Assembly (NCBI GenBank): GCA_044350895.1
Contig: JBILGT010000002.1
Coordinates: forward strand, 36,554 to 100,553
Direction of reading: 5' to 3'
Source: Limisphaerales bacterium
GTDB lineage: Bacteria; Patescibacteriota; Microgenomatia; UBA1400; PJMF01
DNA: 64,000 bases
Part shown: positions 27,606 to 53,331 of the stretch, piece by piece
How positions within the stretch are numbered: the first letter of the stretch is position 1
How the letters are laid out: every line of letters begins with the position of its first letter
The notes under the pieces: model-generated
What the model saw: the letters and a program-made list of their open reading frames with translations, nothing else
Told to the model about the DNA's origin: nothing
Database searches by the model: none
Program-made: the position numbers and the translations under genes

Positions 27606-30600
27606 ATGGCATCCGATACTCAACCTCGGCAGATTGTTTTTGTGGCTGGAACTACTACTTCAGTAGATGAGTATCCTGTTGATGTAGACCACATAAAACA
27701 AATTGGTTTTTACTCCTCTGATGATTTTATTCAGTTTAAAGATCTCTTTTTAGAGCTCATCAATTCTCTCCATCTTAATGATCAAGGTATTTACGAACTA
27801 TATCCCGGTCAAGAAATCAAACAGATTCGCATTACATATCAAAAGGATGGCGGAAATTTTCAAAAAGTTTCACTTCGCACTACCGATGGATTACCTGGTG
27901 ACCCAGGAATACCAGAAAAACGGGAACGACTTTTCTTCTGTGACTTTGTCTATATTTCACTCGGCATCGCCAAAATCCTTCGAAAGAACTATCCCAAATC
28001 TACTGAAACACTGAAAGACTATACCGACAGCTTCGATATTGAGAAACAAATTAAAGAATGGGGAGCTGCTGGAGAGAAGCAGTATCTTTCCCAACGAGCA
28101 CTGCAGTGGGAAACTCCAGCAATCAAAGAGTTGCTTACTGAAATTTTTACGGCGTTTCAAGATATCACTGTAGAACTTAAAAAAGAGCCTGTCCAAGAAC
28201 CACCAGCTGAGGAATCAGGTGAACGACGCGCTACAGAAGCTGATGCTCTACTTGTCTTACCAGAAGTTTTGACTGCAGGAGTCACTCCAACTGTAGATGG
28301 TGGTGGCGATACAGCTGATACTACTAGCACACCTACTAGCACAAGAACTGAATCAATTGAAGATGAATCAAGCTACGTAACAGCGCGACAATTTGTTTTG
28401 GGGTTTGCGAGAACAACATTGATTGACGATGTCTTGAGGCGCAGTGGTCTAGATCCTGATTCTTTACCGCCTGAACTTCGAGGGCGATATGATGAGCTCT
28501 TCAGAATTCTTGAAACAGAACTAACTATTGTGCTGAGAAATCTTTCTGATGAAGAACGAGAACGACTTGCTTCTGGCGATGTGAGTCAAAAAATTTCCGT
28601 CTACTATTTACTACTCCGCCAATTATCAGGTAGTCCATCAGCACGTTTTTATGAGTTGTTTGTAGAATTTTATGAAACAGAAGTCACACATCTAGTTGAG
28701 AACCAACAAACAGAAGCGGCCCAACAACTTGTGACCGCAGTAACTGCCCAGTTTAGCGAAGTAGCACAAGAAATTCCTGAGCTTCAAAGAATTCATGATA
28801 ATTTACTAGCCTGGGAGCGTGAAATTTTGAGTGCAGCTCCAGTTGCAGCAACAACTGCTGAGACTGATGATGAAATCGAAACACCAGCTACTATTGTAGA
28901 AGCAACTGATGAAGTTGAAATACAGATCTCTCGCCTCCCCGATCCGCCAGTTATCATTCCAACGTTCCAAGCGCAAGTCAGTGCGCTTCCTCAAGTCCAA
29001 CAACTTACACAAAACGAGCAGGCCAGCATCCCCAATCGTTCTGGCCACGTTATTTGGGGAGCAATGGCTGAACTATTTTCAGAGGAAGATCTTCGTCGAA
29101 ATAATATTCCACCAGAGCTTTTTAACGCTGTTTCTCAGACTGCTTATGAATACCTCAATGGACTTTCTGCGCAGGAACTTAAAAAACTTGCAAAATCACC
29201 AAGTAGTTTAATTCGTCATATAAAAAATGTTTCTGTCAGACTACAAACTGATGCTGTTTTTAGTGAAACATACGGACAATACAAGTTATCCTATGCTACA
29301 CCAGCAATTAATCGTACCGAGCGAATTGAAGTTGAGACACAGTGGGCTTCTGAGAATTTGAAATACGAACTTTTCAGTGCCCACGACATTACGACATCAT
29401 TACTCAACCAATCTGCAAAATTAACCAGTGAGTATCGTGATGTTGAACAGAATCTTGAAGCAAAAGTTTATGGTATTTTCCTTACATTTAGTACTGATTA
29501 TCTCCAACTTTTATACTTCAATCCCAACGAGCGACGTACCTTAATCATTCGAATACAAAACACACTCAATGCTGATCCTCAGTTTTTAAGAGAATTAAGT
29601 GAGTTTTACAACGAACTAATTGTCTATTTTGCTGAACAACAAAGACTTGAGGAACGTGAAGACCTTGTTGAGAGTTTAAAAAGTACTAATCACTCATTTT
29701 TACAAGAAGAAGGCACTTTTCGCTATATTGTCAGTGATGTTCAACTATCAGATTCACACAAATTATTTATTGAGCAGTTAAAAAAGAGCTTAAACACTGA
29801 CTCCCCGCCAATCTTGCAAAACACTGCAAATGTGCTCGACGCCCTGATCATTGCACATGGAATCGAAGAAACTAACCGTCTTATTCAAGGGGTAAGTCCA
29901 CAACTACTAGAAATGACGTTTGGATTACCCACAGGGATCATTACTGATGACAACCATCGGTCGATTAGAGAAATTTTGGGTAACTACATAACTGTTCGTG
30001 TTTTCAACCTTGCACCAGGTGAAATTGCCGATCACAGAGCCCTATTAGTACCAGGTCAGACTACTATTCCTACAAATGCCACTAGTTTGCAGAAACACTT
30101 GGGACCAGTACATAATCTTGCAAAAATAATTACTGAAGATGGTTCTGAAAAAACGACTCTTGCACTACAAGGCGGAGTTAAGAAAAGAATTGATGCATTA
30201 GAAAAGGTTTTGGGACAAAAGTGGAGAAACTTAGGACTTGAGGAACGTGCAGCAGTTTACTTGTACTTTGATAAACCGTTTGATGCTTCACTTAAGCAAC
30301 GTCTAAAAAGTAAGTCAGCAGATTTGGAAGCTGACAAGCATATTTTAGGCGTCTTCATAGAATTTGCAGGTTTTAACGATCGATTATTGCCAGAGCTTGT
30401 CACTGATGCTCGGCTTAATGGATTTCAAAGATTAACTGGTGGAATCCCTGTTGAGACTAAATCGGGTGATGATATTACTGAGTTTTACAAAATCACCCGT
30501 CAAGCTGAAATACTTGAGCTTGAAGTTTCACTACTCGTACTAGACGAACTTTCAGCATTAGAGCGGGAACAACTTGCAGCACAGTACCAGATGTCTGCTG

Positions 30601-32447
30601 CGCAGCTTGAAGCTGCTTACCTCACCGCAATCACTACCAATCAAGGAATGCACTCACTTCCCGGGCCAGATGAGATCACACAAGTTGGAGGTGATCAACA
30701 ACCCGCCCAGCCTGGACAAAACTTGCCTGAGAGTACTACCAGAAGCCCACTCAGAGAGCGACTGAAAAATGGACTCAGAAAAAAAGCCACAGGAGAAATA
30801 ACTAAGAGACTTGGTGCAGCAACTGCCGAAAAAGCCCTTTTTGGTCTTGGAGGCAAACTGGCTGGTTTGGCATCTGGGGTTGGTGCTGCAATTGCTGCAG
30901 CTGCATTGATTAAGGACGTTCTCACTGAACTTTGGAATAACGAGGGCTTACGAAATCTACTCGCTGGGGCATTAACTGTCGGTTCAGCAATTTTGCTTAA
31001 TATTCTTGGAAATGTGGCGGGACTTTTAACTTTTGCTGCAATAAGTTTTGTGGGAGGATTTTCTATCCCCGCTCTCTTAGCTGGATTAGCTGCTGGTCAA
31101 GCAGCAGCCATGGCAGCACCTTGGGCACGCTGGTTTTCACAACCACGCACACCACCAAACCCATTTGGTTTCTCAACTGGTAGTGAGCAGTCAGCATCAG
31201 GAACTCCATCATTAGCTCAAATGCGTGGAAAAGCTCCTGGGGCGACTCCCCAATCGTCCATTTCACCTACTCCAGAATCAACCACAGCGACTGCAAATAG
31301 TGGAGTAACACCAGATGGTTCAAATGCTTCTGTTTCTGCTACAACCCAATATAGTACAACTTCAACAACAGCCGCTACTGCTTCTGGATTGTCTCAACTT
31401 GCTGCTATACCTATTGCTATTCTGGCTCCAACAATGGGAATTTTCACCGTTTTCATATCAACAATATTGGTTGTCACTGTTATTGCAGGAGCATTTTTAG
31501 TACCAGTTCCTACAAAACCAAATTCTCGCAAGGTAATTGATGGACTTGGACAACAGTCCAGTTCCAAATACGTCACTATCACAAAAACTCCTTCAATTGG
31601 AGCTACAAAAGGAGAAATTCAAAATAGAACAGATGTTCCTGTTACGTACACAATTACTGTTGAACCAAAGCCAGGATATTCAATAAAAGTTACTGGCGTA
31701 AAAGATGAATTTTCTGGAATTGGTGGGCAAACAACAGACCTGCAATCAAAACTTGATTTTTCAAAATTCCCCAGTGAACCAATCAAGGACTCTTCATTTT
31801 CAACAAGCTATACGGTCAATACAGGCACCAATTTGATTGATGCACTTATAATGAATGCTGTTACAGCAACCTTTGATGTATACGATTACACTGGGTACGT
31901 AATTGAAACGGGTGAAACATATACCGCAACAGCAACTATTTATATTGGTAATCCAAAAGTAGGCTGTTGGCCAACTAGTGGTGGTGTATGGCAACTGCCT
32001 GGTGGTAGCTTCAGTCATAGCAGATTGGATGCATACGACATTGGAAATGAAATTGGAACTCCTGTGTATGCGCCATTCCCTGGAGAAGTATGTGATAAAG
32101 GATATGACACTGCAGCAAGCGGTGGATATGGGCTCCACGCCAGTTTGAAGTTCAACCTAGGTGGCGGAGATCTCGTCCTATTTTTTGGTCACTTTGTTAA
32201 AAGTCCAAAAGATTTAATTGAAGGACTTGATGCCCGCGGATGTAAGACTGTTAATGCTGGAACACTCATAGGACTGATGGATGACACAGGTTTTTCCACA
32301 GCATCTCACTTACATTACGAACTGAGACCAAATACAATTGGGGTGAAGCTCAAAGATTTGCATCCAGATGGTCAACAGGTTATTAATTCATTCAACAGTG
32401 GAAAAAGGCCAGTGATCGTCCGAGACTGTTTTGGAGGAACAAAATAA
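27606..32447 (+). CDS. giant (1613 aa) membrane protein: large cytoplasmic N-terminal region, Gly/Ala-zipper TM segments, extracellular C-terminal M23 (LytM) peptidase domain
   Basis: C-terminus 'HSRLDAYDIGNEIGTPVYAPFPGEV...GGYGLHASLKF...GTLIGLMDDTGFSTASHLHYELRP' is the M23 signature (HxxxD...HxH). TM cluster 'GLASGVGAAIAAAAL...ALTVGSAILLNILGNVAGLLTFAAISFVGGFSIPALLAGLAAGQAAAMAA' and 'IAILAPTMGIFTVFISTILVVTVIAGAFLV'. Confidence 0.65.
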   Translation: MASDTQPRQIVFVAGTTTSVDEYPVDVDHIKQIGFYSSDDFIQFKDLFLELINSLHLNDQGIYELYPGQEIKQIRITYQKDGGNFQKVSLRTTDGLPGDPGIPEKRERLFFCDFVYISLGIAKILRKNYPKSTETLKDYTDSFDIEKQIKEWGAAGEKQYLSQRALQWETPAIKELLTEIFTAFQDITVELKKEPVQEPPAEESGERRATEADALLVLPEVLTAGVTPTVDGGGDTADTTSTPTSTRTESIEDESSYVTARQFVLGFARTTLIDDVLRRSGLDPDSLPPELRGRYDELFRILETELTIVLRNLSDEERERLASGDVSQKISVYYLLLRQLSGSPSARFYELFVEFYETEVTHLVENQQTEAAQQLVTAVTAQFSEVAQEIPELQRIHDNLLAWEREILSAAPVAATTAETDDEIETPATIVEATDEVEIQISRLPDPPVIIPTFQAQVSALPQVQQLTQNEQASIPNRSGHVIWGAMAELFSEEDLRRNNIPPELFNAVSQTAYEYLNGLSAQELKKLAKSPSSLIRHIKNVSVRLQTDAVFSETYGQYKLSYATPAINRTERIEVETQWASENLKYELFSAHDITTSLLNQSAKLTSEYRDVEQNLEAKVYGIFLTFSTDYLQLLYFNPNERRTLIIRIQNTLNADPQFLRELSEFYNELIVYFAEQQRLEEREDLVESLKSTNHSFLQEEGTFRYIVSDVQLSDSHKLFIEQLKKSLNTDSPPILQNTANVLDALIIAHGIEETNRLIQGVSPQLLEMTFGLPTGIITDDNHRSIREILGNYITVRVFNLAPGEIADHRALLVPGQTTIPTNATSLQKHLGPVHNLAKIITEDGSEKTTLALQGGVKKRIDALEKVLGQKWRNLGLEERAAVYLYFDKPFDASLKQRLKSKSADLEADKHILGVFIEFAGFNDRLLPELVTDARLNGFQRLTGGIPVETKSGDDITEFYKITRQAEILELEVSLLVLDELSALEREQLAAQYQMSAAQLEAAYLTAITTNQGMHSLPGPDEITQVGGDQQPAQPGQNLPESTTRSPLRERLKNGLRKKATGEITKRLGAATAEKALFGLGGKLAGLASGVGAAIAAAALIKDVLTELWNNEGLRNLLAGALTVGSAILLNILGNVAGLLTFAAISFVGGFSIPALLAGLAAGQAAAMAAPWARWFSQPRTPPNPFGFSTGSEQSASGTPSLAQMRGKAPGATPQSSISPTPESTTATANSGVTPDGSNASVSATTQYSTTSTTAATASGLSQLAAIPIAILAPTMGIFTVFISTILVVTVIAGAFLVPVPTKPNSRKVIDGLGQQSSSKYVTITKTPSIGATKGEIQNRTDVPVTYTITVEPKPGYSIKVTGVKDEFSGIGGQTTDLQSKLDFSKFPSEPIKDSSFSTSYTVNTGTNLIDALIMNAVTATFDVYDYTGYVIETGETYTATATIYIGNPKVGCWPTSGGVWQLPGGSFSHSRLDAYDIGNEIGTPVYAPFPGEVCDKGYDTAASGGYGLHASLKFNLGGGDLVLFFGHFVKSPKDLIEGLDARGCKTVNAGTLIGLMDDTGFSTASHLHYELRPNTIGVKLKDLHPDGQQVINSFNSGKRPVIVRDCFGGTK

Positions 32448-33451
32448 TGGAATACGTTATTCAAGAGCAACCCACTCAACAGTCCCCCAAATGGCTTCCA
32501 CGACTGGTTGTTATTGGCGTCATTGTCCTGGCTGTAGGATACTTGTTTCGTTGGCTCACTCCAGACGCCGCCCCCGCTCAGCCACTTTCTCAGTCGAACT
32601 ACGATAATTCACAAAGCACTTTTGAAAATATGGTGTTCACGGGTACTGCACCAGCAATTCCCAGCAAACTACCTGTTGCAACAGCAACTGAAGTGAAGCG
32701 AGTTAATCAGGAAGTGGAACTCACTCTTATTTCCAAACACCGACTGCAAGGTTTTGAAAAGTATACTGGAATCTGGATTGGACCTGAATACAACCTCACC
32801 CGAACAAGTAGTCCTGAACTATACGTTTTAACAAAAAAAGCCGTGGAAGATGCCACAGCTCTCGAAAGTGGTATTTCCACTGAGCAAGCGGTACGAAGTG
32901 CCACCAATTATGTATCAGAAGTTTTTAAGAATGAAAAGTTCGTTTCATTTCCCGATAGAATCCGTTATTTTGAAATTGGTGATCATCCACATCCTGAAAT
33001 AACAGAATCAGAAGAAAATGCAAATACTATCGAAATTTCTTTTGGCTATAAATACGGTCCCTACCCTGTTTTTTTTGACAAGGACTATACTTTTCCCGTC
33101 ACAATCATTGTTAATTCTGAATATGAGATACAAAAGATGACATTCCAACCATATTTTATGCAGTTTCAAGAAGGTCAAAACTTTTCAACGGTTACTATTC
33201 AGCAAGCACTCGGGAACATTATGGATGGAAAAGGAGCGCTCATTAAAAGTACCTACGACGGACACGGAAACCCATTATTGAGTGACATAACTAAAGGCAG
33301 TTTAAGTACTGTCTATGTTGAATATCGAGTTGATTCCGATTCAAAAACACTACTGCCCTACTATCGCTTTACTGGTCAACTGGAAAATAACGAAGGAATC
33401 ACCTTTTATGGTGAAGTGGTAACGCCAGCCATTCAAACAGAACAACAGTAA
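32447..33451 (+). CDS. membrane-anchored (N-terminal TM) extracytoplasmic protein; candidate VirB8/TcpC-like component
   Basis: ATG overlaps the stop of the upstream gene. TM 'LPRLVVIGVIVLAVGYLF', then a ~290-aa soluble domain. The assignment is by size, topology and position only. Confidence 0.35.
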   Translation: MEYVIQEQPTQQSPKWLPRLVVIGVIVLAVGYLFRWLTPDAAPAQPLSQSNYDNSQSTFENMVFTGTAPAIPSKLPVATATEVKRVNQEVELTLISKHRLQGFEKYTGIWIGPEYNLTRTSSPELYVLTKKAVEDATALESGISTEQAVRSATNYVSEVFKNEKFVSFPDRIRYFEIGDHPHPEITESEENANTIEISFGYKYGPYPVFFDKDYTFPVTIIVNSEYEIQKMTFQPYFMQFQEGQNFSTVTIQQALGNIMDGKGALIKSTYDGHGNPLLSDITKGSLSTVYVEYRVDSDSKTLLPYYRFTGQLENNEGITFYGEVVTPAIQTEQQ

Positions 33452-33493
33452 ATCATGATAAGATACTAAAGAAAAGAATCGTGAACTTCATGT

Positions 33494-34684
33494 TTGCCCA
33501 TCATGAAAGAACATCCAATACCACAAGATATTACTAGCTATCGCTTTCACATTGTTGGAAGCATGACACTCAAACAATTTGGTGAAGTTGCAGGTGGTGT
33601 TGTTATCTGTTTTATACTCTATCAGACAAATCTTCCCGCAATCATCAAATGGCCACTCATTGCTATCCTTTTTGGAGGCGGACTTGCTGCAGCTTTTGTT
33701 CCTATTGAAGAGCGTCCCTTAAGTCACTGGATTGCAACATTTTTTAGTATTCTCTATAAACCAACACAATTTTTCTGGAAACGTGCCTACAACATTCCTG
33801 CTCCGTTTTTGTTTAAAGGTAATAGTGATAATATGCTGCAAATGCAGGAGCTCGACCTTACTCCTGCGCGACGGCAACGAATTAAAGAATTTATTTCTTC
33901 AACAGGAACAACCGAAACTGTCGGTGAGTTTACTAACGAAGAGCAATCTCGCATGTCCGATATTCTCAATATTTTCCAGACTCAAACAACGATTGGAGTT
34001 CGAGAAGAACATACTGAAGTCATTCATAAACCGAATCTCACTGTTCGAGTACGAAGCATGCGGCAATTTGAAATTCCTAGTGAAGAAGTTGAAAAAGAAC
34101 ATTTTACAGTAAATTCGCTTGATAGTGTAGAAAATTTGGACTCTACAATTGTTTTACAAACTGACGAACCTACAAGTAGCTCATACAAAAAGAACAGCTA
34201 CCTCGAGTCACAACAAGTTGCACAGGGGCTTGAAATTCCCGAAATTCAACCTGTTGATCTTGGCATAAAGAACACTCCAGAAGAAGTATCAGCACTGATT
34301 CAACAACAAAACATCAATCCTACAGAACGTGCATACCTAGAAGACACACAGCCACATTTCAAAATAGAAAGTGCTTCTGAATCTGTTCATTTTAACAATC
34401 AGCTTCCCTTTCCCAGTCAACCAACTGTTGCAAATAAACTGGTCGGTATGGTTCTCACTCCAAATAATGATTTGGTCCCAGGAGCAATTGTAGAGATAAA
34501 AACTGCAAATGGACACGTATCAAGAGCAGTAAAAACTAATGCATTGGGACAGTTTTTCATTACTACACCGCTTAATAATGGCGACTACGTTGTGTCAGTA
34601 GAAAAAGAAGGACAGACATTTAGACCAGTTTCAATTCAATTAGTTGGTAAAATCGTAGAACCTTTGGAAATCCGGAGTAGCTAA
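33494..34684 (+). CDS. two-TM N-terminal domain protein (VirB3/PrgI-like topology) with C-terminal carboxypeptidase-regulatory/transthyretin-like beta-sandwich
   Basis: N-terminal hairpin 'GGVVICFILYQTNLPAIIKWPLIAILFGGGLAAAFV'. C-terminal 'GMVLTPNNDLVPGAIVEIKTANGHVSRAVKTNALGQFFITTPLNNGDYVVSVEKEG' resembles a CarbopepD_reg-like fold. Confidence 0.4.
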   Translation: MPIMKEHPIPQDITSYRFHIVGSMTLKQFGEVAGGVVICFILYQTNLPAIIKWPLIAILFGGGLAAAFVPIEERPLSHWIATFFSILYKPTQFFWKRAYNIPAPFLFKGNSDNMLQMQELDLTPARRQRIKEFISSTGTTETVGEFTNEEQSRMSDILNIFQTQTTIGVREEHTEVIHKPNLTVRVRSMRQFEIPSEEVEKEHFTVNSLDSVENLDSTIVLQTDEPTSSSYKKNSYLESQQVAQGLEIPEIQPVDLGIKNTPEEVSALIQQQNINPTERAYLEDTQPHFKIESASESVHFNNQLPFPSQPTVANKLVGMVLTPNNDLVPGAIVEIKTANGHVSRAVKTNALGQFFITTPLNNGDYVVSVEKEGQTFRPVSIQLVGKIVEPLEIRSS

Positions 34685-35923
34685 TTGCGACAGCTTCCAA
34701 AAGAAGCTACCATTAAAAAGCAACATATGGCAGATATTATTCAATCAACAACACAACAATTCTTGGATATTTACGATATCACCAACAACTTTGTGGTAAT
34801 GAAAGACGGCACTGTATCGACAATATTAACTGTTGATGCAATGAATTTTGGTCTTTTAGCAGAAGAAGAACAAGATGCCATCATGTACGCCTACGCAGGA
34901 CTGCTCAACTCACTCAACTACTCTGTTCAAATCATTATTAACTCTAGAACAAAAGACGTTACGTCATACTTAAAAGTGCTGCAGGAACAGGAAACTACTG
35001 CAGAGACCGAGACACTCCGTCGGCGCATCAGAATGTACCGGGAGTTTGTCGGCAACTTAATTCATGAAAGAAATGTTTTGGATAAAAAGTTCTATGTTGT
35101 CATTCCTGCCGCAGCCGTTGAAATGGGATTTTTAGCTCCAGCAAGTGTGTTACCTGGAAAAACCAATGCGTTTGATATCAGTTCAATTGAGCGTTCTGTC
35201 ATAATTGAAAAAGCTAGAAATCTGCTTGACCCTAAGCGAGACCACCTCATTGCGCAGTTTGCACGTATTGGATTGTTTTCAAGACAGCTTTCAACGCAGG
35301 AAATTATTCAACTGTTCTATGTTCGATACAACCCAGAAGCGGTTGAAGGTCAGCAAATTGGTGAAAGTAGTAGTTATACCACTCCGCTTGTAAAAGCGAG
35401 TATACAGGGAAATTTTATGAATACCCCGACACAAACGGTACCACAACCTCAAGCTATACCTGAGGTGCAAGCTTCGCTTGACCCAGTTGTCACACAATCA
35501 ATGCCAGAGATGAGCATGCAACCAGCACATCTTGAACCAGTTCCAGAAATTCATATTGCTGCTGTTGCTCCTGAAACTGTTGCAGCTCCATTTACACCTA
35601 CAGAACCACCGGCTGCACCAGTCATGCCACCAATGGCAACTATGCCGCAAATGTCTCAACCACCAGCAATTGAGACACCCATTTCTCCAGTAGTTTCACA
35701 ACCACCAGTGGTAAATACACCACCTATGCAAACTATTGAGATTCCAGCTGCAACTCCACCTGTACCAGAGAACACACTAGCCAGCACTGGAAGTCTCCCG
35801 TCCGAAGCTGAAGTACAAGCTGATTTAAATACAACACTACAGTCTCTGGGGACCACACCAGATATAACCAGTGTTCCACCAACCCAACCAGCGGCTGATC
35901 TGCCACCGCTGCCAGAGATTTAA
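34685..35923 (+). CDS. protein with VirB4-N-terminal-like domain followed by Pro/Thr/Gln-rich low-complexity tail
   Basis: 'FLDIYDITNNFVVMKDGTVSTILTVDAMNFGLLAEEEQDAIMYAYAGLLNSLNYSVQIIINS' resembles the CagE/TrbE/VirB4 N-terminal domain. The C-terminal 190 aa are PxxP-rich. Start is adjacent to the stop of the upstream gene. Confidence 0.4.
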   Translation: MRQLPKEATIKKQHMADIIQSTTQQFLDIYDITNNFVVMKDGTVSTILTVDAMNFGLLAEEEQDAIMYAYAGLLNSLNYSVQIIINSRTKDVTSYLKVLQEQETTAETETLRRRIRMYREFVGNLIHERNVLDKKFYVVIPAAAVEMGFLAPASVLPGKTNAFDISSIERSVIIEKARNLLDPKRDHLIAQFARIGLFSRQLSTQEIIQLFYVRYNPEAVEGQQIGESSSYTTPLVKASIQGNFMNTPTQTVPQPQAIPEVQASLDPVVTQSMPEMSMQPAHLEPVPEIHIAAVAPETVAAPFTPTEPPAAPVMPPMATMPQMSQPPAIETPISPVVSQPPVVNTPPMQTIEIPAATPPVPENTLASTGSLPSEAEVQADLNTTLQSLGTTPDITSVPPTQPAADLPPLPEI

Positions 35924-35984: not shown

Positions 35985-38048
35985 ATGCCCAGTTTATCGT
36001 CGTTACTTCCAACGCTTCCGTTTCCATTTGGCCAAAAGAAAAAGCCTGAGAATTCGCCATCACCAGAGGAGCTGCAGGAACAGAAAAACTTGGAAAAGTT
36101 ACAACAGTTTTCTCGAGGCCTAGTTACTATCCAAGATATCATTGCTCCTGAAGCTATTGAGGTTGATTTTACGTATCAGAAAATCAACTCTACCTATACT
36201 AGAACTCTGTTTGTAGCTGGCTATCCCCGAACTGTCCCAGCCAACTGGCTCGCGCCACTCATCAACTACCCACATCAGATTACAACTTCAATGTTTATCT
36301 TTCCGGTAGATTCAGCTGAGATTCTCGATAACCTCAAACGCAAAATCACTGAAATGGAAGCTGAAATTCAATCAGATTTACGTGCAGGTAAGATTTCAAA
36401 CATTAATACCGAAGTTAAACTAGAAGACGCACGATTCATTCGCGAAGAACTAGCAAAAGGTGCGGAGCGGTTTTATCAATTTGGTCTGTATGTCACTATT
36501 CAAGCCAAAGATAAAGAAGAACTCGATAAGATCACTAAAAGCATTCAATCAACACTCGGTTCTCTCTTAATCGTATCCAAGAAAGCTACGCTGCAAATGG
36601 ATGAGGGATTTAAGACAACGTTACCAATGGGAGTTGATAAGTTGCTCGTCACTCGAAATATGGATACCACGTCACTCGCAACAACATTCCCGTTTACTTC
36701 ATCTGAACTTACGATGGAAACAGGCATTATGTACGGCATTAATGAGCATAATGACTCGCTCGTTATCTTTGACCGTTTCAAGATGGAAAACGCCAACATG
36801 GTTATCTTTGCTAAGTCAGGTGCTGGAAAATCTTACACCGTCAAACTAGAGATTTTGCGCCAGCTTATGTTTGGTGCTGAAGTGATTGTTATGGACCCTG
36901 AACATGAGTATGAAGATATGTCTGTAGCCGTAGCTGGAACGTACATTAATTTTACTTTTAATTCTGAAACAAAGATCAACCCTTTTGACCTCGCCAATCT
37001 CTATGAGGAAGGTGAAAATGAACTTGGGCAAAAAATTATTTCATTACATGGTCTTCTCAAAGTTATGTTGGGTGATATGACACCACAACAAGATGCTTTA
37101 CTCGACCGCGCCTTGGTAGCAGCTTATAAAGCTAAAGGCATTACTCCAGATCCAGCAACACAAGTCAACGAACCACCACTCATGGAAGATGTCTATAAAG
37201 CTTTGATTGGTATGGAAAATCGAGATGCTGATGATATTTCAGCCAGACTAGAAAAATTTATCACAGGTTCATTCCGAGGAATTTTCGATCAAAAATCAAA
37301 CATTGATATTAAAAGCCAATTAACGGTCTTTTCAGTTAAAGAAATGGAAGAAGAGATGCGTCCAATTGCGATGTACATCATCTTGGACTTTATCTGGACT
37401 CGTATTCGCAAAGACCTCAAGAAGCGCCTTCTTATTATTGATGAGGCCTGGTACTTTATGAAGCATCCTGATTCAGCTTCATTTATCTACTCAATGGTAA
37501 AGCGTGCTCGTAAATATTACTTGGGTATTACCACCATCACGCAAGATGTTGAAGACTTTTTGCACACAGATTACGGTAAAGCAATTGTGACAAACGCTTC
37601 CATCCAGTTTTTGATGAAGCAGTCTACAGCGTCAATTCCGGTTCTTGCAGAAACGTTCTATCTTTCACAAGGTGAACGACAACTGCTCGTCACAGCAGAT
37701 GTTGGTGAAGGAATTTTCTTTGCAGGGCAAAATCACGTTGCGCTTCGTGTTGTGGCTAGTGAAGAAGAACACACCTTAATTACAACCAACCCTGAAGAAG
37801 TACTACAAAACCGCCGTGTTGCAGAACAAACCAGAATTCAAGCTGCAACTGATTTGGCTGAGAAAAAACCATCATATCCGATGCCACCACGACAGCCTGC
37901 TCAAAGAGAACCAGCTGCACAAGCTGCAATGCCTGCCGTCTTAGTCAAAACAGCTGATACAACTTCTGCTGCTGCGACTGGTCGACCACAGTACATGCCA
38001 GATTCAATTGATAATTACAAACCACCTTCTAAACCAATCAAACAATAG
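35985..38048 (+). CDS. virB4: type IV secretion ATPase VirB4 (Gram-positive TcpF/PrgJ/TraE-like)
   Basis: N-terminal 'IAPEAIEVDFTYQKINSTYTRTLFVAGYPRTVPANWLAPL...SMFIFP', Walker A 'FAKSGAGKSYT', Walker B 'LLIIDEAWYFM'. 687 aa. Confidence 0.8.
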   Translation: MPSLSSLLPTLPFPFGQKKKPENSPSPEELQEQKNLEKLQQFSRGLVTIQDIIAPEAIEVDFTYQKINSTYTRTLFVAGYPRTVPANWLAPLINYPHQITTSMFIFPVDSAEILDNLKRKITEMEAEIQSDLRAGKISNINTEVKLEDARFIREELAKGAERFYQFGLYVTIQAKDKEELDKITKSIQSTLGSLLIVSKKATLQMDEGFKTTLPMGVDKLLVTRNMDTTSLATTFPFTSSELTMETGIMYGINEHNDSLVIFDRFKMENANMVIFAKSGAGKSYTVKLEILRQLMFGAEVIVMDPEHEYEDMSVAVAGTYINFTFNSETKINPFDLANLYEEGENELGQKIISLHGLLKVMLGDMTPQQDALLDRALVAAYKAKGITPDPATQVNEPPLMEDVYKALIGMENRDADDISARLEKFITGSFRGIFDQKSNIDIKSQLTVFSVKEMEEEMRPIAMYIILDFIWTRIRKDLKKRLLIIDEAWYFMKHPDSASFIYSMVKRARKYYLGITTITQDVEDFLHTDYGKAIVTNASIQFLMKQSTASIPVLAETFYLSQGERQLLVTADVGEGIFFAGQNHVALRVVASEEEHTLITTNPEEVLQNRRVAEQTRIQAATDLAEKKPSYPMPPRQPAQREPAAQAAMPAVLVKTADTTSAAATGRPQYMPDSIDNYKPPSKPIKQ

Positions 38049-38151
38049 CTTTTCCTACTTGCGTGCTGTGTAAAACACTGTGTATAACTATGTGACTCGT
38101 CTAACGATTTAAGTAATCTGGGTCTAATTTTTCTCTGGAGATGTTCTTTTT

Positions 38152-39675
38152 ATGCAGCAATCAACACTTTCTAATGAAGAAGTTTCTACAATTTGGCAAC
38201 AGTACTGCAACTTACTCCAAAAAGAGATGTCTTCTGCAGTTTACAACACGTGGATTCTCTCAAATCCCATTACAGAAATTGAGGTTATAGATGACACAAA
38301 AGCCGTTGTCACCATTACTAGTCCAACAGCTTTCCACTCCACAAACCTCAAAAAGAACTTACATATGCAAGTCAAACAAGCATTAGATGTTCTTCTACAA
38401 AGAAATTGTGAAGTTTCATATTTAGTGGGTGATCCACAAAAGAAACGAGAAACTCCAAAAGAACCTGCTACAGGATTCACACAAGTGGTTTCAGCTTCGT
38501 TTACACAGCAACAGTTTGCAGCTACTTCTACTCCACCGGCATTTGCCAATCACACACAAAACCAATCCCCGCGGGTTGAAGATTTATTTTCTGAGAATAC
38601 GATGATGAATGCAGCAGAAGAACGTATTCAAATGCAAGCGCGCGGCATTGGTTTGAGAATTGATTACACCTTTGCCACGTTTGCAGTCTCCACCACCAAC
38701 GAAATGGCACATGCAGCAGCTACAGCAGTATCAAACAGACCAGGTCAGTCATACAATCCACTCTTTCTATATGGTGGTGTGGGTGTCGGCAAAACGCATC
38801 TCATGCACGCGATTGGCCATAATATTTTGAGAGCAAATCCGAATGCCAAGATTATCTACTGTACTGGTGAAGAGTTTACCAATGACATTGTGCATGCCAT
38901 TCAAACAAAAAAGGCTAGCCACTTCAAAGATCGCTATAGATCAGCAAATGTTTTATTAATTGACGATATTCAGTTTATTGCTGGTAAAAACGCTGTCCAA
39001 GAAGAGTTTTTTCACACATTTAACGCACTTACCAAGCAATTTAGCCAAATAGTGCTTACTTCAGATCGGCCACCTCACGAAATAACATTACTTGAGGATC
39101 GGCTGAGATCACGCTTTGAAGCTGGACTGATGATTGATATTCAACAACCATCATTTGAATTAAGAACAGCAATAGTCCTAGTAAAAGCCAAAGCACAACA
39201 AATCGCAATCACCATAGATCTTGCAAAAGTGATTGCTTCAAAAGTCGAGAGTGCCCGAAAGATAGAAGGCATTATCACGAGTATTCGATCCGAAATTGAA
39301 CTTAAACACCGAGAGCTCAACCTAGAATTGATTGAAGATATTCTGCAAGTAGAAGTCGAAGTTAAACGACCTCGGATAAAAGTTGCTCCTGCTGATGTCA
39401 TTAAAACTGTGGCTAATCACTATCACGTTAAGCAGTCATCATTAAAAGGTTCAAGTAGGCTTAAAAGTCTTGTTACAGCGCGTCATATCGCGATGTATTT
39501 ACTCAAAAAAGAGCTTTCTTTACCACTCACCGAAATCGGTCGTTGGTTTGCAAGTCGTGACCACACTAGTGTGTTACATGCAGTGAAAAAAGTCGAAAAA
39601 GATATGGCGCTCAGTGATGAATTGCGTCAGGATGTGTCAGCACTCCAGATGACATTGGCTGCGATTTCAAAATAA
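38152..39675 (+). CDS. dnaA: chromosomal replication initiator DnaA
   Basis: Walker A 'LFLYGGVGVGKTHLMHAIG', 'LLIDDIQFIAGKNAVQEEFFHTFNAL', C-terminal domain IV 'TARHIAMYLLKKELSLPLTEIGRWFASRDHTSVLHAVKKVE'. Confidence 0.92.
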   Translation: MQQSTLSNEEVSTIWQQYCNLLQKEMSSAVYNTWILSNPITEIEVIDDTKAVVTITSPTAFHSTNLKKNLHMQVKQALDVLLQRNCEVSYLVGDPQKKRETPKEPATGFTQVVSASFTQQQFAATSTPPAFANHTQNQSPRVEDLFSENTMMNAAEERIQMQARGIGLRIDYTFATFAVSTTNEMAHAAATAVSNRPGQSYNPLFLYGGVGVGKTHLMHAIGHNILRANPNAKIIYCTGEEFTNDIVHAIQTKKASHFKDRYRSANVLLIDDIQFIAGKNAVQEEFFHTFNALTKQFSQIVLTSDRPPHEITLLEDRLRSRFEAGLMIDIQQPSFELRTAIVLVKAKAQQIAITIDLAKVIASKVESARKIEGIITSIRSEIELKHRELNLELIEDILQVEVEVKRPRIKVAPADVIKTVANHYHVKQSSLKGSSRLKSLVTARHIAMYLLKKELSLPLTEIGRWFASRDHTSVLHAVKKVEKDMALSDELRQDVSALQMTLAAISK

Positions 39676-39943
39676 CCCAGGAGTTTTTCACACCTGTTGA
39701 AAACTTTGTGAATAACTTATGCATAACCTAGTGGACAGAATGTGCATGATTTTTACTGAATGTGTGCAACAGAAAGTTACTCACACAGCTGGACACAGCA
39801 ATTCACATTAGTTATTAACATTCACAAGCGGCGTGAGTTCACATATAATCCACAGTATTGCAACCAGATCAGAAAGCCGTCCTTTTCAACAAAGCGCAAC
39901 TAGCCTACTATTACTACAACTAAATTTATATATATAAAGTTTT
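39676..39943. promoter_or_regulatory. candidate oriC (dnaA-dnaN intergenic): degenerate DnaA boxes plus AT-rich unwinding element
   Basis: TGTGAATAA (39707-39715) and TAATCCACA (39846-39854) are each one mismatch from TTATCCACA/TGTGGATAA. AT-run 'taaatttatatatataaagttttat' at ~39920-39945. An additional TGTGTATAA lies upstream of dnaA at 38079-38087. Confidence 0.5.
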
Positions 39944-41053
39944 ATGCAAATTGTCGTATTACAAGAAAATTTACAGCACGCACTTAACTATATTCAAAAG
40001 GCAATTCCCGCTAAAGCACAGCTTCCCGTACTCTCTTCCATTCTCATAACAACAACAGAATCAACCTGTACTATTGGAGCAACTGATTTGTACTTTGGGG
40101 TGAGAGCTACAATGCCAGCTCAAATTGAAACTTCCGGAACAGTCGCTGTACCTGGTAAAGAGTTTAGAGAGATAATTGGTTCGCTTCCAGCTGGTGAAAT
40201 TAAACTAAGTTTTACTGCAAGTACCTTGACAATAGTTGCAGGGAGAACGACCTGTACACTCCAGTGTCAAGAAAGTGATGAGTATCCCCCATTCCCTCAA
40301 GTCACCGGTGAAGTTGCAACACTATCCACCAAAATCCTCGAAACGATTTCCCAAGTGGTCCTCTATAGTGCGTCAAACGATCAAGCTCGTCCATTACTCA
40401 CAGGAGTTCTCTTCAATTTAACCGCAGAATCCACCCGAGTTGTCACAACTGACGGATTTAGATTATCAATTGCTGATTTTTCACCAATGCCTGGACAACA
40501 ACCGATTCAATTCATACTGCCCGTTCGTGCCGTCAGTGAAGTTTGTCGTATAGCTGCCCAACTAAAGAGTGAAACTGTTGTTTTCACTGTTTCAAGTGAG
40601 TTGAAGCAGGTTTTTATTACCTTTGATGGCATTGAAGTATATGCCCGAGTTCTAGAAGGTGACTATCCCCCATATGAAAAGATAGTCCCTGCTCTCTTTA
40701 CAACAGAAGTGGTTCTATCTAGTGATGAACTACTTGAACAGGTAAAACGAGCTACAATCTTTTCAAGAGACACATCAAGTATTGTGCAACTCGAAATTAC
40801 TCCTGAAAAAGTAGTCGTAAAGGCAGCCTCTTCAACACTCGGTAACTATTCAGGTGAAGTGGGTAATGCGCAAATCACCGGAAGCGGTGGTACTATCGCA
40901 TTTAAATCAAAGTATATTCTCGACTTTTTACAAGCTGCTAAGCAAACTGAAGTCTGGTTTGGCATGAGTGATAGTTTAAAACCAGCGATGTTTCAGTCAA
41001 AAGAACTAAATGGATATAGATATGTAGTTATGCCATTCCGTGTAACGACATAG
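39944..41053 (+). CDS. dnaN: DNA polymerase III beta sliding clamp
   Basis: '[35 protein letters not shown]', position immediately after dnaA, 369 aa, three-domain length. Confidence 0.9.
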
Positions 41054-41076: not shown

Positions 41077-41214
41077 ATGACAAAACGTACCTGGAACCCA
41101 AAAAAGAAAAAACGAGCTCGTAAACACGGCTTCTTAAAACGCATGCTATCAGTTGGTGGCAGAAACGTTTTAAAGCGTCGTCGTGCAAAAGGTCGTCAAC
41201 GACTTGCTGTCTAA
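41077..41214 (+). CDS. rpmH: 50S ribosomal protein L34
   Basis: Translated by hand: [45 protein letters not shown]. Below the ORF-track size cutoff. Confidence 0.85.
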
Positions 41215-41220
41215 ATAGTA

Positions 41221-41553
41221 ATGCTTGCAAAACAATTTAACTTTAAGCTTCGTTCAGATAGAGAGTTTTTCTCCAACGCTTCCAAAACTCGATTACATCC
41301 GTTTACTGTATTCTTGCAAGAAGTACCTAGTTCTTTTGCTATTACTATTCTCGTACCAAAGCGCGTAGTTGCGCTTGCTACAAAAAGAAATAGAATAAAA
41401 AGGCTTTTGTATCAGGAATTACAGAAGCATCTGGATGCTTTACAAGAACTGCATCTGCACTGTGTAATTGTTCTACAATCTCAAATTCCAGATCAAAAAG
41501 TGAGCATAGCTGTTGATAAATTAAAAATGTATCTAACAGCGGTACGGGCATGA
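41221..41553 (+). CDS. rnpA: RNase P protein component
   Basis: Position after rpmH. 'KRNRIKRLLYQ' RNR-type motif. Confidence 0.75.
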   Translation: MLAKQFNFKLRSDREFFSNASKTRLHPFTVFLQEVPSSFAITILVPKRVVALATKRNRIKRLLYQELQKHLDALQELHLHCVIVLQSQIPDQKVSIAVDKLKMYLTAVRA

Positions 41554-41741
41554 AATTACTAGAAAAACTATATATAATTAGTAAAACAGTACGATATATA
41601 TTTCTTTTTTCTGTATTTGGTGTTGTTAGTAAATGTAAACATACACCTACTTGTGGACACTACTTTGTCCAAACAATAAGAAAAGAAGGAATTTTACAAG
41701 GAATATATAAGGGAGTACCACGTATAATAGCCTGTTACTGA
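41550..41741 (+). CDS. yidD: membrane protein insertion efficiency factor YidD
   Basis: 'CKHTPTCGHYFVQTIRKEGILQGIYKGVPRIIAC' matches the C.F.PSCS.Y....G...G......RI.RC pattern. 4-bp overlap with rnpA. Confidence 0.75.
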   Translation: MKLLEKLYIISKTVRYIFLFSVFGVVSKCKHTPTCGHYFVQTIRKEGILQGIYKGVPRIIACY

Positions 41742-41754
41742 GGAGCAATACCGT

Positions 41755-42519
41755 ATGCAACCAATTATTGATGTCATATCAAACTTTATACTTTTTCTCT
41801 ATCAGCTTACTGGCAATTTAGGTGCTGCGTTAATCCTCTTCACACTAGCCATTAGGTCAGTTCTCTTCCCACTCACTCTTTCTTCACTGAAAGCTGGCAA
41901 TAACATCAAAAAATTACAACCAGAATTAAAAGAATTACAGAAAAAACATAAGGGCGATAAAACTGCTATGCAGCAAGCCCAAATGGATTTGTATAAAAAA
42001 TATAATGTAAATCCCCTAGCCGGCTGTTTACCACAGTTACTACAAATTGGTGTGCTCATTGTTTTATACCAAGTATTAGTAGAGTTTTTAGCTCAATCAG
42101 AAATTCACGGAATTCAAATTAATCCATCATTTTTGTGGCTACAACTCAATCACCCAGATCCAACCTACATTTTGCCGGTTCTAGCTGGTGTCACTCAATT
42201 AATACTTTCTCTCATGATTGCTCCTGGTGCCGAAAAGACTGATGAAGTTCCAAACCAGAGTAAAAAGAAAAAGGTTCAAGAAGAAAACAAAAAAGAAGAA
42301 GATTTTGCTGAAATGGCGCAATCTATGCAGCAGCAGATGATTTTTATTATGCCTGTAATGACTGGTATACTAGCACTTCAGTTTCCAGCTGGTTTGTCAC
42401 TGTACTGGGTAATCACTACCCTCTTTAGCATTGGACAACAGTGGTATGTTTCTGGCTGGGGTGGCTTAGTCATGTACTTACAAAGAATACAAAATGTAAT
42501 GACACAAAAACGTGTTTGA
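41755..42519 (+). CDS. yidC: membrane protein insertase YidC (short Gram-positive type)
   Basis: 'RSVLFPLTLSSLKAGNNIKKLQPELKELQKKHKGDKTAMQQAQMDLYKKYNVNPLAGCLPQLLQIGVLIVLY'. Conserved rnpA-yidD-yidC-jag order. Confidence 0.85.
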   Translation: MQPIIDVISNFILFLYQLTGNLGAALILFTLAIRSVLFPLTLSSLKAGNNIKKLQPELKELQKKHKGDKTAMQQAQMDLYKKYNVNPLAGCLPQLLQIGVLIVLYQVLVEFLAQSEIHGIQINPSFLWLQLNHPDPTYILPVLAGVTQLILSLMIAPGAEKTDEVPNQSKKKKVQEENKKEEDFAEMAQSMQQQMIFIMPVMTGILALQFPAGLSLYWVITTLFSIGQQWYVSGWGGLVMYLQRIQNVMTQKRV

Positions 42520-42997
42520 AGAAAGGAATAGTATGACAATTGATACATTTGTTCGCAATTTATGTGAACACTGTGGAGTTGATTCAGAAGTTTTAGAAGT
42601 TTCTGTTGAAGATTCTTCAGAAATGATGATGATAACCATTTCACTTCCAGAAGAAGATTCTGGTCGTTTTATTGGTTTTCATGGAGAAACACTTGAGTCA
42701 ATTCAACGAGTGCTTCGGGTGATCTTCTCTGAAGAATATCCTGAAAAGAAAATTGTGCTCAATATTAATGAGTACCGCCAAGAGCGTGAACGTAAATTAC
42801 AAGAATTGACAAAAAATGTGGCGGAGCGTGTTCTCGAAACAGGCCAAACCTACACATTCCAGTCTTATTTACCTGCACATGAGCGTTTTGTTATTCACTC
42901 AACTCTAGGTGAGCTTCCAGAAAATGAAAAGCTTGAAAGCGTCTCAACTGGTGAAGGCAAAGAACGAAGATTGAGTATTCGCATGAAAGCGGAATAA
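42512..42997 (+). CDS. khpB: Jag/KhpB (KH + R3H RNA-binding protein)
   Basis: Overlaps the yidC stop. The R3H-like C-terminus is 'ERFVIHSTLGELPENEKLESVSTGEGKERRLSI'. Confidence 0.7.
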   Translation: MFEERNSMTIDTFVRNLCEHCGVDSEVLEVSVEDSSEMMMITISLPEEDSGRFIGFHGETLESIQRVLRVIFSEEYPEKKIVLNINEYRQERERKLQELTKNVAERVLETGQTYTFQSYLPAHERFVIHSTLGELPENEKLESVSTGEGKERRLSIRMKAE

Positions 42998-51492: not shown

Positions 51493-51497
51493 GAAGT

Positions 51498-52163: not shown

Positions 52164-52170
52164 ACTTTAC

Positions 52171-52746: not shown

Positions 52747-52748
52747 GT

Positions 52749-53252: not shown

Positions 53253-53331
53253 ATTATTTCTTTAAAACGCTAATACGGAGGGCTTTCACCCTCCGTATGC
53301 TTAGTACTCGTCGATCCACTCCTCAACTAAG

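What the first reader, a model, noticed from the sequence alone, without database searches (positions are those of the whole stretch)
38049..41053. Replication origin (dnaA, oriC, dnaN) directly abutting the T4SS-like locus; no relaxase or integrase seen
VirB4 ends about 100 bp before dnaA. Degenerate DnaA boxes (TGTGTATAA, TGTGAATAA, TAATCCACA) and an AT-rich tract flank dnaA. The window contains no relaxase, integrase, transposase or tRNA target, so the T4SS-like locus is core chromosomal rather than an integrative conjugative element. That argues for a role in host attachment, DNA uptake or protein delivery rather than self-transfer.
Basis: partly seen in the sequence, partly recalled or inferred. 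Interest (0 to 1): 0.55.

Follow-up and report, generated by a model that had tools for sequence, protein, structure and literature searches.

The report
Replication origin beside Patescibacteria T4SS
This stretch is the chromosome's replication-start region (dnaA, origin DNA, dnaN) of an ultra-small "candidate phyla radiation" bacterium, and it lies directly after a secretion-machine operon that is inherited vertically rather than carried on a mobile element; a 2025 paper already describes this arrangement.

Summary
A VirB4-like ATPase gene ends at 38048. dnaA (38152-39675) and dnaN (39944-41053) follow, then rpmH-rnpA-yidD-yidC-jag.

The 268-bp dnaA-dnaN spacer is the densest DnaA-box cluster in the window: 10 boxes with up to 2 mismatches, against about 1.2 expected. 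It also holds a complete unwinding module: a box, a 13-nt spacer, six DnaA-trios (39905-39922, unique in 64 kb) and a 95% A+T tract ending at the dnaN ATG. This module recurs in 65 of 70 related genomes. DnaA boxes are 33-44 times enriched in both spacers across relatives.

The block from the T4SS genes through virB4, dnaA, dnaN, yidC and jag keeps the same order in all of about 75 species-level Patescibacteria genomes with enough sequence. VirB4 (median 84% identity) is better conserved than DnaA (57%).

No relaxase, integrase, transposase, tRNA or att-like repeat was found.

GC skew within the window does not place a switch at dnaA. It is confounded by codon bias and is inconclusive.

Quinonero-Coronel et al. 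2025 (PMC12102498) already reported the relaxase-free, chromosomal Patescibacteria T4SS next to dnaA/dnaN. The finding is correct but already known. Only the detailed origin anatomy is added here.

The parts
35985..38048 (+). VirB4-like T4SS ATPase, last gene of the T4SS operon (context for the finding)
   Evidence: Pfam P-loop_TraG 1.7e-21, AAA_10, DUF87, weak CagE_TrbE_VirB. More than 8000 homologues; the best 120 listed are 75-93% identical, and those that carry source names are mostly labelled Patescibacteria.
38049..38151 (.). virB4-dnaA spacer (103 bp). It holds two DnaA boxes on the minus strand: TTTTACACA at 38067-38075 and TTATACACA at 38079-38087. It is either the left box cluster of a bipartite oriC or a dnaA autoregulatory operator.
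   Evidence: In relatives this spacer has 11.8 boxes/kb against 0.27/kb elsewhere. No sigma-70-like promoter or terminator was detected here.
38152..39675 (+). dnaA, replication initiator (507 aa)
   Evidence: Pfam Bac_DnaA 9.6e-66, Bac_DnaA_C 1.8e-23, DnaA_N 1.8e-5.
39676..39943 (.). dnaA-dnaN spacer, the predicted oriC (268 bp, 36.6% GC). Boxes with up to 2 mismatches start at 39684(+), 39695(-), 39707(-), 39717, 39741(-), 39777(+), 39812(+), 39846(+) and 39883(+).
   Evidence: 10 boxes against about 1.2 expected. It is the densest 300-bp bin in the 64 kb. In 70 relatives it has 9.0 boxes/kb against 0.27/kb elsewhere.
39821..39849 (+). Promoter-like site TTCACA-17-TATAAT (11 of 12 matches), probably the dnaN promoter. 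It overlaps the box TAATCCACA.
   Evidence: This is a consensus match only.
39883..39891 (+). Trio-proximal DnaA box TTTTCAACA, followed by a 13-nt spacer AAGCGCAACTAGC (39892-39904)
   Evidence: The box-to-trio spacer is 4 nt in 29 relatives and 12-13 nt in 24. This is the tandem-box geometry described in PMC8287927.
39905..39922 (-). DnaA-trio array. The top strand reads CTA CTA TTA CTA CAA CTA, so the bottom strand reads 3'-GAT GAT AAT GAT GTT GAT-5'.
   Evidence: It is the only such array in 64 kb, with 0.03 expected. 65 of 70 relatives have an array matching at least 4 of 6 trios, at a median of 52 nt before the dnaN ATG.
39923..39943 (.). AT-rich tract AATTTATATATATAAAGTTTT (95% A+T), the predicted DNA-unwinding element
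   Evidence: An AT-rich tract follows the trios in the aligned relatives.
39944..41053 (+). dnaN, DNA polymerase III beta clamp (369 aa)
   Evidence: Pfam DNA_pol3_beta, _2 and _3.
41077..42997 (+). rpmH, rnpA, yidD, yidC, jag/KhpB: the classic origin-neighbourhood genes, here downstream of dnaN and co-oriented with it
   Evidence: Pfam. The order is conserved in relatives.
27606..35923 (+). Upstream T4SS operon genes. A 1613-aa protein with a polytopic segment and a C-terminal M23 peptidase (VirB1-like role). A 334-aa bitopic protein of unknown family. A 396-aa PrgI/VirB3-like protein. A 412-aa TrsD-like protein.
   Evidence: Pfam, NCBIfam TrsD / VirB4 N-terminal hits, hydropathy, synteny.
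62204..63898 (-). VirD4/TrwB-like type IV coupling protein, 24 kb from virB4.
   Evidence: Pfam TrwB_AAD_bind 7e-12, TraG-D_C 1.8e-7.

Best explanation
Positions 38049-41053 are the chromosomal replication-origin locus of a Patescibacteria (CPR) bacterium of the Pacebacteria/Woesebacteria (Microgenomates) type.

Inferred mechanism. DnaA binds the cluster of degenerate boxes in the dnaA-dnaN spacer, and the two boxes upstream of dnaA. From the trio-proximal box at 39883-39891 it oligomerises onto the DnaA-trios at 39905-39922. It then melts the adjoining AT-rich tract at 39923-39943, where the helicase is loaded. This is the Bacillus-type 'basal unwinding system'.

The T4SS operon that ends 103 bp upstream is not part of a mobile element. 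It is a domesticated, vertically inherited system of monoderm-conjugation ancestry, fixed next to dnaA throughout this clade. It has no relaxase and presumably serves the epibiotic lifestyle, for example effector delivery or macromolecule uptake.

Shown here: gene identities, box, trio and AT-rich anatomy, their conservation, the synteny, and the absence of mobility genes in the window. Inferred: actual origin firing at this site, and the T4SS function.
For: The box cluster is significant against local composition and is the top cluster of the window. The trio array is unique in 64 kb.

Comparative evidence is strong. Boxes are enriched 33-fold in the dnaA-dnaN spacer and 44-fold in the virB4-dnaA spacer of 70-75 relatives. 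The layout of box, spacer, trios and AT-rich tract is present in 65 of 70, with spacers of 4 or 12-13 nt. This matches the published BUS definition: spacer up to 16 nt, at least 3 NAN trios, 3'-GAT-5' preferred (PMC8287927).

The gene order from the M23 protein to DUF4012 is conserved in all loci with enough sequence. The virB4-dnaA spacer is 65-290 bp in 75 of 77 loci. Median identity is 84% for VirB4 against 57% for DnaA and 42% for DnaN.

No tRNA, no mobility domains and no att-like repeats were found.

The literature agrees. PMC12102498 reports the same T4SS, the near absence of relaxases and the dnaA/dnaN/rnpA/rpmH neighbourhood in Microgenomatia and Paceibacteria. The T4SS is essential in Southlakia (PMC12857230 and PMC11665869).
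Against: GC skew inside the window shows no sign change at dnaA. Raw skew is negative on both sides, and the cumulative minimum lies at about 57-59 kb.

A change-point fit on 4-fold degenerate sites finds a step in the expected direction but places it best at about 51-52 kb. Only 0.4% of gene-level bootstraps fall at 36-42 kb. This fit is confounded by very strong codon bias in the pilin genes (9.6-14.4 kb, + strand) and in the camelysin/signal-peptidase genes (51-57 kb, - strand).

Gene orientation does not switch at dnaA: about 70% of coding sequence to the left would be head-on to a leftward fork (tally from the gene map).

Origin activity is not demonstrated experimentally. The genome beyond the window was not searched for relaxases or integrases.
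Confidence: 0.85

Rival explanations
1. The DnaA boxes around dnaA are only transcriptional operators, for dnaA autoregulation and the dnaN promoter. The true oriC would lie elsewhere, for example near the apparent skew step at about 51-52 kb or outside the window.
For: The in-window skew change point is not at dnaA. A strong promoter-like site overlaps boxes in the spacer. Origins separated from dnaA exist in other bacteria; PMC8287927 notes this for E. coli.
Against: The window has no other box cluster and no other trio array. An operator model does not explain a conserved array of at least 4 of 6 trios with fixed 4 or 13-nt spacing from a box, followed by an AT-rich tract, in 65 of 70 genomes. 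The skew signal is confounded by codon bias.
Confidence: 0.07
2. The T4SS block is a currently mobile or recently integrated conjugative element (ICE) that happened to insert beside dnaA. Its relaxase and integrase would lie just outside the window.
For: The VirB4 lineage derives from monoderm conjugation systems (PMC12102498). A VirD4-like coupling protein is present in the window. Sequence beyond the window was not examined.
Against: The same block in the same order abuts dnaA in about 75 species-level genomes whose DnaA is only 49-88% identical. VirB4 is more conserved than housekeeping genes. The window has no relaxase, integrase, transposase, tRNA or direct repeats. Relaxases are rare across the phylum.
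Confidence: 0.02
3. The adjacency is functional rather than historical. The T4SS operon is kept next to oriC and dnaA for replication-associated gene dosage, or is transcriptionally coupled to dnaA by read-through from virB4. This would link initiator supply to the host-contact machinery.
For: The spacer is short and conserved (65-290 bp in 75 of 77 loci). No terminator-like or sigma-70-like promoter site lies in the 103-bp spacer. Gene dosage was proposed in PMC12102498.
Against: L045 carries a 444-aa gene on the opposite strand between virB4 and dnaA, and L032 carries an extra 278-aa gene there, so co-transcription is not obligatory. Slow-growing epibionts are unlikely to run overlapping replication rounds (own reasoning). 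The promoter scan does not cover non-canonical promoters.
Confidence: 0.12

Closest known systems
Patescibacteria-clade T4SS located next to dnaA/dnaN (Quinonero-Coronel et al. 2025, Microb Genom, PMC12102498)
   Same: It has a VirB4 of the Patescibacteria clade, a TrsD-like protein, a PrgI/VirB3-like protein, multiple VirB2-like pilin paralogs and a peptidoglycan hydrolase. The coupling protein is encoded far from virB4. There is no relaxase. dnaA, dnaN, rpmH and rnpA lie next to virB4, as reported for Microgenomatia and Paceibacteria.
   Different: Nothing essential differs. This window is one more instance. The paper used dnaA as a proxy for the origin and, in the sections read, did not describe the DnaA-box, trio and AT-rich anatomy or the relative conservation of VirB4 and DnaA.
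Bacillus subtilis-type oriC with a basal unwinding system between dnaA and dnaN (Richardson et al. 2016; Pelliciari et al. 2021, PMC8287927)
   Same: DnaA-box clusters lie on both sides of dnaA. In the dnaA-dnaN spacer a box (tandem-box geometry) is followed by a short spacer, 3'-GAT-5' trios and an AT-rich tract just before dnaN.
   Different: The boxes are more degenerate; the clade favours TTTTCCACA and TTATTCACA. The upstream cluster is tiny (2 boxes in 103 bp). rpmH-rnpA-yidC-jag lie downstream of dnaN instead of diverging upstream of dnaA. No functional data exist for any CPR origin.
Integrative conjugative elements of monoderms (MPF-FATA class, e.g. ICEBs1, Tn916, pCF10-type systems)
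   Same: They share ancestry of VirB4, TrsD, PrgI, the cell-wall hydrolase and the VirD4-like coupling protein.
   Different: Here there is no relaxase, integrase, oriT or att sites. The position is fixed and vertically inherited. VirB2-like pilins are present, which is atypical for Gram-positive systems (PMC12857230). Sequence conservation is extreme.

Membership tests
DnaA-dependent chromosomal origin (oriC) with basal unwinding system | Adjacent to dnaA (typical, not obligatory) | tested here: met
   dnaA is at 38152-39675 and dnaN at 39944-41053. The candidate oriC is the spacer between them.
DnaA-dependent chromosomal origin (oriC) with basal unwinding system | Cluster of DnaA boxes (TTATCCACA-like) beyond chance | tested here: met
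   10 boxes with up to 2 mismatches in 268 bp against about 1.2 expected; no shuffle of 2000 reached the observed count under either scheme. It is the top bin of the window. Enrichment is 33-fold in the dnaA-dnaN spacer and 44-fold in the virB4-dnaA spacer of relatives.
DnaA-dependent chromosomal origin (oriC) with basal unwinding system | At least 3 DnaA-trios (NAN, preferably 3'-GAT-5') within 16 nt of a DnaA box | tested here: met
   Six trios lie at 39905-39922, 13 nt after the box at 39883-39891. 65 of 70 relatives have an array; spacers are 4 or 12-13 nt. Criteria are from PMC8287927.
DnaA-dependent chromosomal origin (oriC) with basal unwinding system | AT-rich unwinding element next to the trios | tested here: met
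   39923-39943 is 95% A+T. The same layout appears in relatives.
DnaA-dependent chromosomal origin (oriC) with basal unwinding system | GC-skew sign change (cumulative minimum) at the site | tested here: inconclusive
   Raw skew shows no switch at dnaA. The 4-fold-site step is in the right direction but fits best at about 51-52 kb and is confounded by codon bias. A whole genome is needed.
DnaA-dependent chromosomal origin (oriC) with basal unwinding system | Demonstrated initiation (marker frequency, DnaA binding or unwinding, autonomous replication) | not testable with these tools
   No reads or experiments are available.
Integrative conjugative element | Relaxase (MOB) gene | tested here: not met
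   No relaxase family was hit in any main ORF of at least 100 aa in the 64 kb (Pfam; NCBIfam). Sequence beyond the window is untested.
Integrative conjugative element | Integrase or recombinase, and att direct repeats or a tRNA target | tested here: not met
   No integrase or transposase domain (same calls), no tRNA, no flanking direct repeats.
Integrative conjugative element | Patchy, strain-variable presence at the site | tested here: not met
   The block is present in the same order next to dnaA in all of about 75 species-level genomes with enough sequence.
Patescibacteria-clade T4SS (PMC12102498) | VirB4 of the Patescibacteria clade | tested here: met
   The best 120 listed homologues are 75-93% identical, and those with source names are mostly labelled Patescibacteria. 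No phylogeny was built here.
Patescibacteria-clade T4SS (PMC12102498) | TrsD-like and PrgI/VirB3-like proteins next to virB4 | tested here: met
   The 412-aa protein hits NCBIfam TrsD at 1.2e-6 and the VirB4 N-terminal region at 1.4e-7, both below the curated cut-offs. The 396-aa protein hits Pfam PrgI at 4.7e-4, below the gathering score. The orthologue in L081 is tagged TraC-like.
Patescibacteria-clade T4SS (PMC12102498) | Multiple VirB2-like pilin paralogs | tested here: met
   Ten tandem PF18895 genes at 9607-14372, plus two larger proteins with the same domain at 2912-5534.
Patescibacteria-clade T4SS (PMC12102498) | Function in epibiotic growth (essential in Southlakia) | not testable with these tools
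   Known only from the literature.

The most novel reading that the evidence does not exclude
The near-invariant arrangement of the T4SS operon reading into dnaA and oriC would be a functional coupling rather than a frozen accident. The arrangement is head-on to the leftward fork, has a 65-290 bp spacer and shows no detectable terminator. Under this reading, transcription of the essential host-contact T4SS reads into dnaA or the left DnaA-box cluster. Initiator supply and origin firing would then be tied to expression of the machine that obtains host material. The unusual conservation of VirB4 (84% median identity against 57% for DnaA) would reflect this central role.
Probability: 0.08. Interest if true: 0.6.

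Novelty: already known. Interest (0 to 1): 0.22.

Why it matters
The finding adds little beyond the published picture. Patescibacteria keep a domesticated, relaxase-free T4SS as a core gene set beside the replication origin. That system is essential in the one species tested, and its substrate is unknown.

Two things are added here. The first is a concrete, testable oriC model for an uncultivated CPR clade, with exact box, trio and AT-rich coordinates that recur in 65 of 70 genomes. This could help set genome start points, support coverage-based replication-rate estimates, and guide the design of replicating vectors. The second is the observation that VirB4 evolves more slowly than DnaA, DnaN or YidC, which underlines how central this machine is.

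Tried and rejected
(1) A window-wide DnaA-box count with up to 1 mismatch is not above chance (22 against 18.75). Only local clustering and comparative enrichment are informative.

(2) Raw GC skew, 4-fold-site skew, a likelihood change-point scan and a gene-level bootstrap do not localise a switch at dnaA. The best fit, at about 51-52 kb, coincides with strongly codon-biased genes on the minus strand. I treat this as inconclusive, not as evidence for another origin.

(3) Rfam found nothing in the window.

(4) I tried to identify the conserved 334-aa T4SS-operon protein with a 26-sequence profile against PDB sequences and Pfam. There was no credible hit. I did not attempt structure prediction, because locus-derived orthologues cannot be submitted and a further database search did not seem justified for a side question.

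(5) A literature search for a published whole-genome skew placing the origin at dnaA in this clade found nothing usable.

(6) Whole-genome skew on closed relatives (CP011212.1, BOKR01000001.1, BOKX01000001.1, the 1.37-Mb ENA contig) was not possible, because only 10-kb flanks can be fetched.

(7) The ICE hypothesis was rejected on synteny and on the absence of mobility genes.
Full report
**What is there**

The window is about 40% GC. From 26232 to 47262 all main genes lie on the + strand. Pfam identifies them in order:
- a flavokinase and an EamA transporter;
- a 1613-aa protein with a C-terminal M23 peptidase (27606-32447);
- a 334-aa protein of unknown family;
- a 396-aa PrgI-like protein;
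- a 412-aa protein;
- a VirB4-like ATPase (35985-38048);
- dnaA (38152-39675, all three DnaA domains) and dnaN (39944-41053, all three clamp domains);
- rpmH (41077-41214), rnpA, yidD, yidC, jag/KhpB, RNase H, a DUF4012 protein and ribosomal protein L25.

NCBIfam shows the 412-aa protein to be TrsD-like, related to the VirB4 N-terminal region.

Upstream lie ten tandem VirB2-like pilin genes (PF18895, 9607-14372) and two larger proteins with the same C-terminal domain (2912-5534). A VirD4/TrwB-like coupling protein sits at 62204-63898 on the minus strand.

**Check of the observation**

VirB4 ends at 38048 and dnaA starts at 38152, a 103-bp gap. The three quoted boxes are at 38079-38087, 39707-39715 and 39846-39854.

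Over the whole window, boxes with up to 1 mismatch are no more frequent than in shuffles (22 against 18.75). The clustering, however, is striking:
- The 300-bp bin starting at 39651 has 11 boxes with up to 2 mismatches, the maximum of the window. The runner-up has 6.
- The 268-bp dnaA-dnaN spacer has 10 such boxes against 1.1-1.3 expected from its own composition; no shuffle of 2000 reached that count under either scheme.
- The 103-bp virB4-dnaA spacer has 2 against 0.3 (p about 0.04).

**Origin anatomy**

The 3' end of the dnaA-dnaN spacer reads as follows:
- TTTTCAACA (39883-39891);
- a 13-nt spacer;
- CTA CTA TTA CTA CAA CTA (39905-39922);
- AATTTATATATATAAAGTTTT (39923-39943, 95% A+T);
- the dnaN ATG (39944).

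On the bottom strand the repeats read 3'-GAT GAT AAT GAT GTT GAT-5', which is the DnaA-trio motif. This is the only such array in 64 kb, with 0.03 expected.

The published definition of the basal unwinding system requires a DnaA box, a spacer of at most 16 nt (peak 10-13) and at least three NAN trios with 3'-GAT-5' preferred (PMC8287927). All of these are met.

A promoter-like TTCACA-17-TATAAT at 39821-39849 probably drives dnaN.

**Comparative evidence**

The VirB4-like protein has more than 8000 close homologues. The best 120 listed are 75-93% identical. Those that carry source names are mostly labelled Patescibacteria (Pacebacteria, Woesebacteria); a few carry other labels.

One scan of species-representative genomes returned 80 loci. 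A 1.37-Mb contig gave one more. tblastn with the window's proteins gave three results:
- The order M23 protein, 334-aa protein, PrgI-like, TrsD-like, VirB4, DnaA, DnaN, (rnpA), YidC, Jag, RNase H, DUF4012 is kept in every locus with enough sequence.
- The virB4-dnaA spacer is 65-290 bp in 75 of 77 loci. The dnaA-dnaN spacer is 216-574 bp.
- The two exceptions each carry one extra gene between virB4 and dnaA. In L045 it is on the opposite strand.

Across these genomes, DnaA boxes with up to 1 mismatch occur at 11.8/kb in the virB4-dnaA spacer and 9.0/kb in the dnaA-dnaN spacer, against 0.27/kb elsewhere. The favoured variants are TTTTCCACA (42 of 70 loci) and TTATTCACA (38 of 70).

A trio array matching at least 4 of 6 is present in 65 of 70 loci, at a median of 52 nt before the dnaN ATG, and is followed by an AT-rich tract. 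The distance from the nearest upstream box to the trios is 4 nt in 29 loci and 12-13 nt in 24. This is what tandem boxes plus a 4-nt spacer would give.

Non-coding DNA that has otherwise diverged completely keeps this architecture. That is the strongest available evidence that the spacer is the functional origin.

**Conservation of the T4SS**

In the same genomes, median identity to the window proteins is 84% for VirB4, 57% for DnaA, 42% for DnaN, 58% for YidC and 46% for Jag. The loci were ranked by VirB4 similarity, which biases this somewhat, but the gap is large. A T4SS ATPase that evolves more slowly than the replication initiator is not what a mobile element looks like.

**Mobility genes**

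The window has no tRNA and no Rfam match. No relaxase, integrase or transposase family was hit in any main ORF. No direct repeats bracket the block; the only real repeats are the pilin paralogs.

**GC skew**

- Raw skew is negative on both sides of dnaA, and the cumulative minimum is near 57-59 kb.
- At 4-fold degenerate sites the coding strand is strongly C-rich. After separating strand and side, the replication-type component is -0.13 to the left of dnaA and +0.05 to the right, which is the expected direction.
- A change-point scan puts the best step at about 51-52 kb (log-likelihood gain of 20, against 11 at 38-40 kb). A gene-level bootstrap agrees.
- That position coincides with a run of minus-strand genes with extreme codon bias, mirrored by the plus-strand pilin genes on the left. 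The simple model is therefore confounded.
- Gene orientation also does not switch at dnaA.

I regard skew as inconclusive at this scale. A whole genome is required.

**Comparison with what is known**

Quinonero-Coronel et al. 2025 (PMC12102498) surveyed Patescibacteria T4SSs and reported:
- a distinct VirB4 clade derived from monoderm conjugation systems;
- TrsD, PrgI/VirB3, VirB6 and multiple VirB2-like pilins;
- coupling proteins usually encoded far from virB4;
- only 109 relaxases in 103 genomes;
- dnaA, dnaN, rnpA and rpmH as common neighbours of virB4 in Microgenomatia and Paceibacteria.

[quoted passage not shown] The T4SS is essential for epibiotic growth of Southlakia epibionticum, while its coupling protein is not. 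The substrate is unknown; effector delivery or DNA/nucleotide uptake have been proposed.

**Verdict**

The novelty class is 'already known'.

The increment here has three parts:
- a base-resolution oriC model, conserved across the clade;
- the relative conservation of VirB4;
- the note that the T4SS operon and dnaA would be head-on to the leftward replication fork.

A functional coupling between T4SS transcription and dnaA/oriC cannot be excluded. The opposite-strand insertion in L045 weakens it, and I give it a low probability.

Noticed in passing
window 9607-14372 and 2912-5534: Ten tandem VirB2-like pilin paralogs (PF18895) lie at 9607-14372, with recent duplications (89% identity between 12434-12733 and 12874-13173). 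Two proteins of 431 and 445 aa carry the same pilin domain at their C-terminus. An ECF-type sigma factor (9018-9602, minus strand) diverges from the array.
   Followed up: partly
window 62204-63898 (-): A VirD4/TrwB-like coupling protein lies 24 kb from virB4, convergent with radA (60728-62110). A crude hydropathy scan finds no N-terminal membrane anchor, which is unusual for a coupling protein.
   Followed up: partly
window 35985-38048 versus 38152-41053; loci L001-L081: VirB4 is far better conserved (median 84% identity) than DnaA (57%), DnaN (42%), YidC (58%) or Jag (46%) in the same genomes. The other T4SS operon proteins are much less conserved (27-61%).
   Followed up: partly
window 32447-33451: A 334-aa protein is conserved in the T4SS operon. 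It has one N-terminal membrane helix and a roughly 290-aa outer domain (invariant Y293 and P304). Even a 26-sequence profile finds no Pfam or PDB sequence match. Its position and topology would suit a VirB8-like component, but this is untested.
   Followed up: partly
window 19657-21426: A 589-aa protein has about eight predicted membrane helices and a faint hit (E = 0.003) to a Mycoplasma ICE conjugal-transfer family (MMCAP2_0566). It is a possible VirB6-like channel subunit.
   Followed up: no
window 14460-18686 (+) and 21515-26197 (-): Two giant proteins (1408 aa with an N-terminal hydrophobic segment; 1560 aa) lie between the pilin array and the T4SS operon. Neither has a credible family hit.
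   Followed up: no
window 50989-53970 (-): A cassette of an S24/S26 signal-peptidase-like gene plus a camelysin/TasA-like (Peptidase_M73) gene is duplicated. It resembles the sipW-tasA fibre system of Bacillus. These genes have extreme codon bias, which distorts the local GC skew.
   Followed up: no
L045 2475-3809 (-) and L032 1985-2821 (+): Two related genomes carry a single extra gene (444 aa and 278 aa) between virB4 and dnaA. The adjacency is therefore not absolute, and co-transcription is not obligatory.
   Followed up: partly
L062 (CP011212.1, 48762-70732): A complete 853-kb genome titled 'candidate division TM6 bacterium GW2011_GWF2_28_16' carries the same T4SS-dnaA block, with VirB4 82% identical. 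Local GC is 34.7%, against the 28% implied by the name. The record's taxonomic label, or the title as shown, may not fit.
   Followed up: no
window 41077-42997: rpmH-rnpA-yidD-yidC-jag lie downstream of dnaN and are co-oriented with it. In Firmicutes they are upstream of dnaA and divergent. The T4SS operon occupies the upstream position and would be head-on to the leftward fork.
   Followed up: partly
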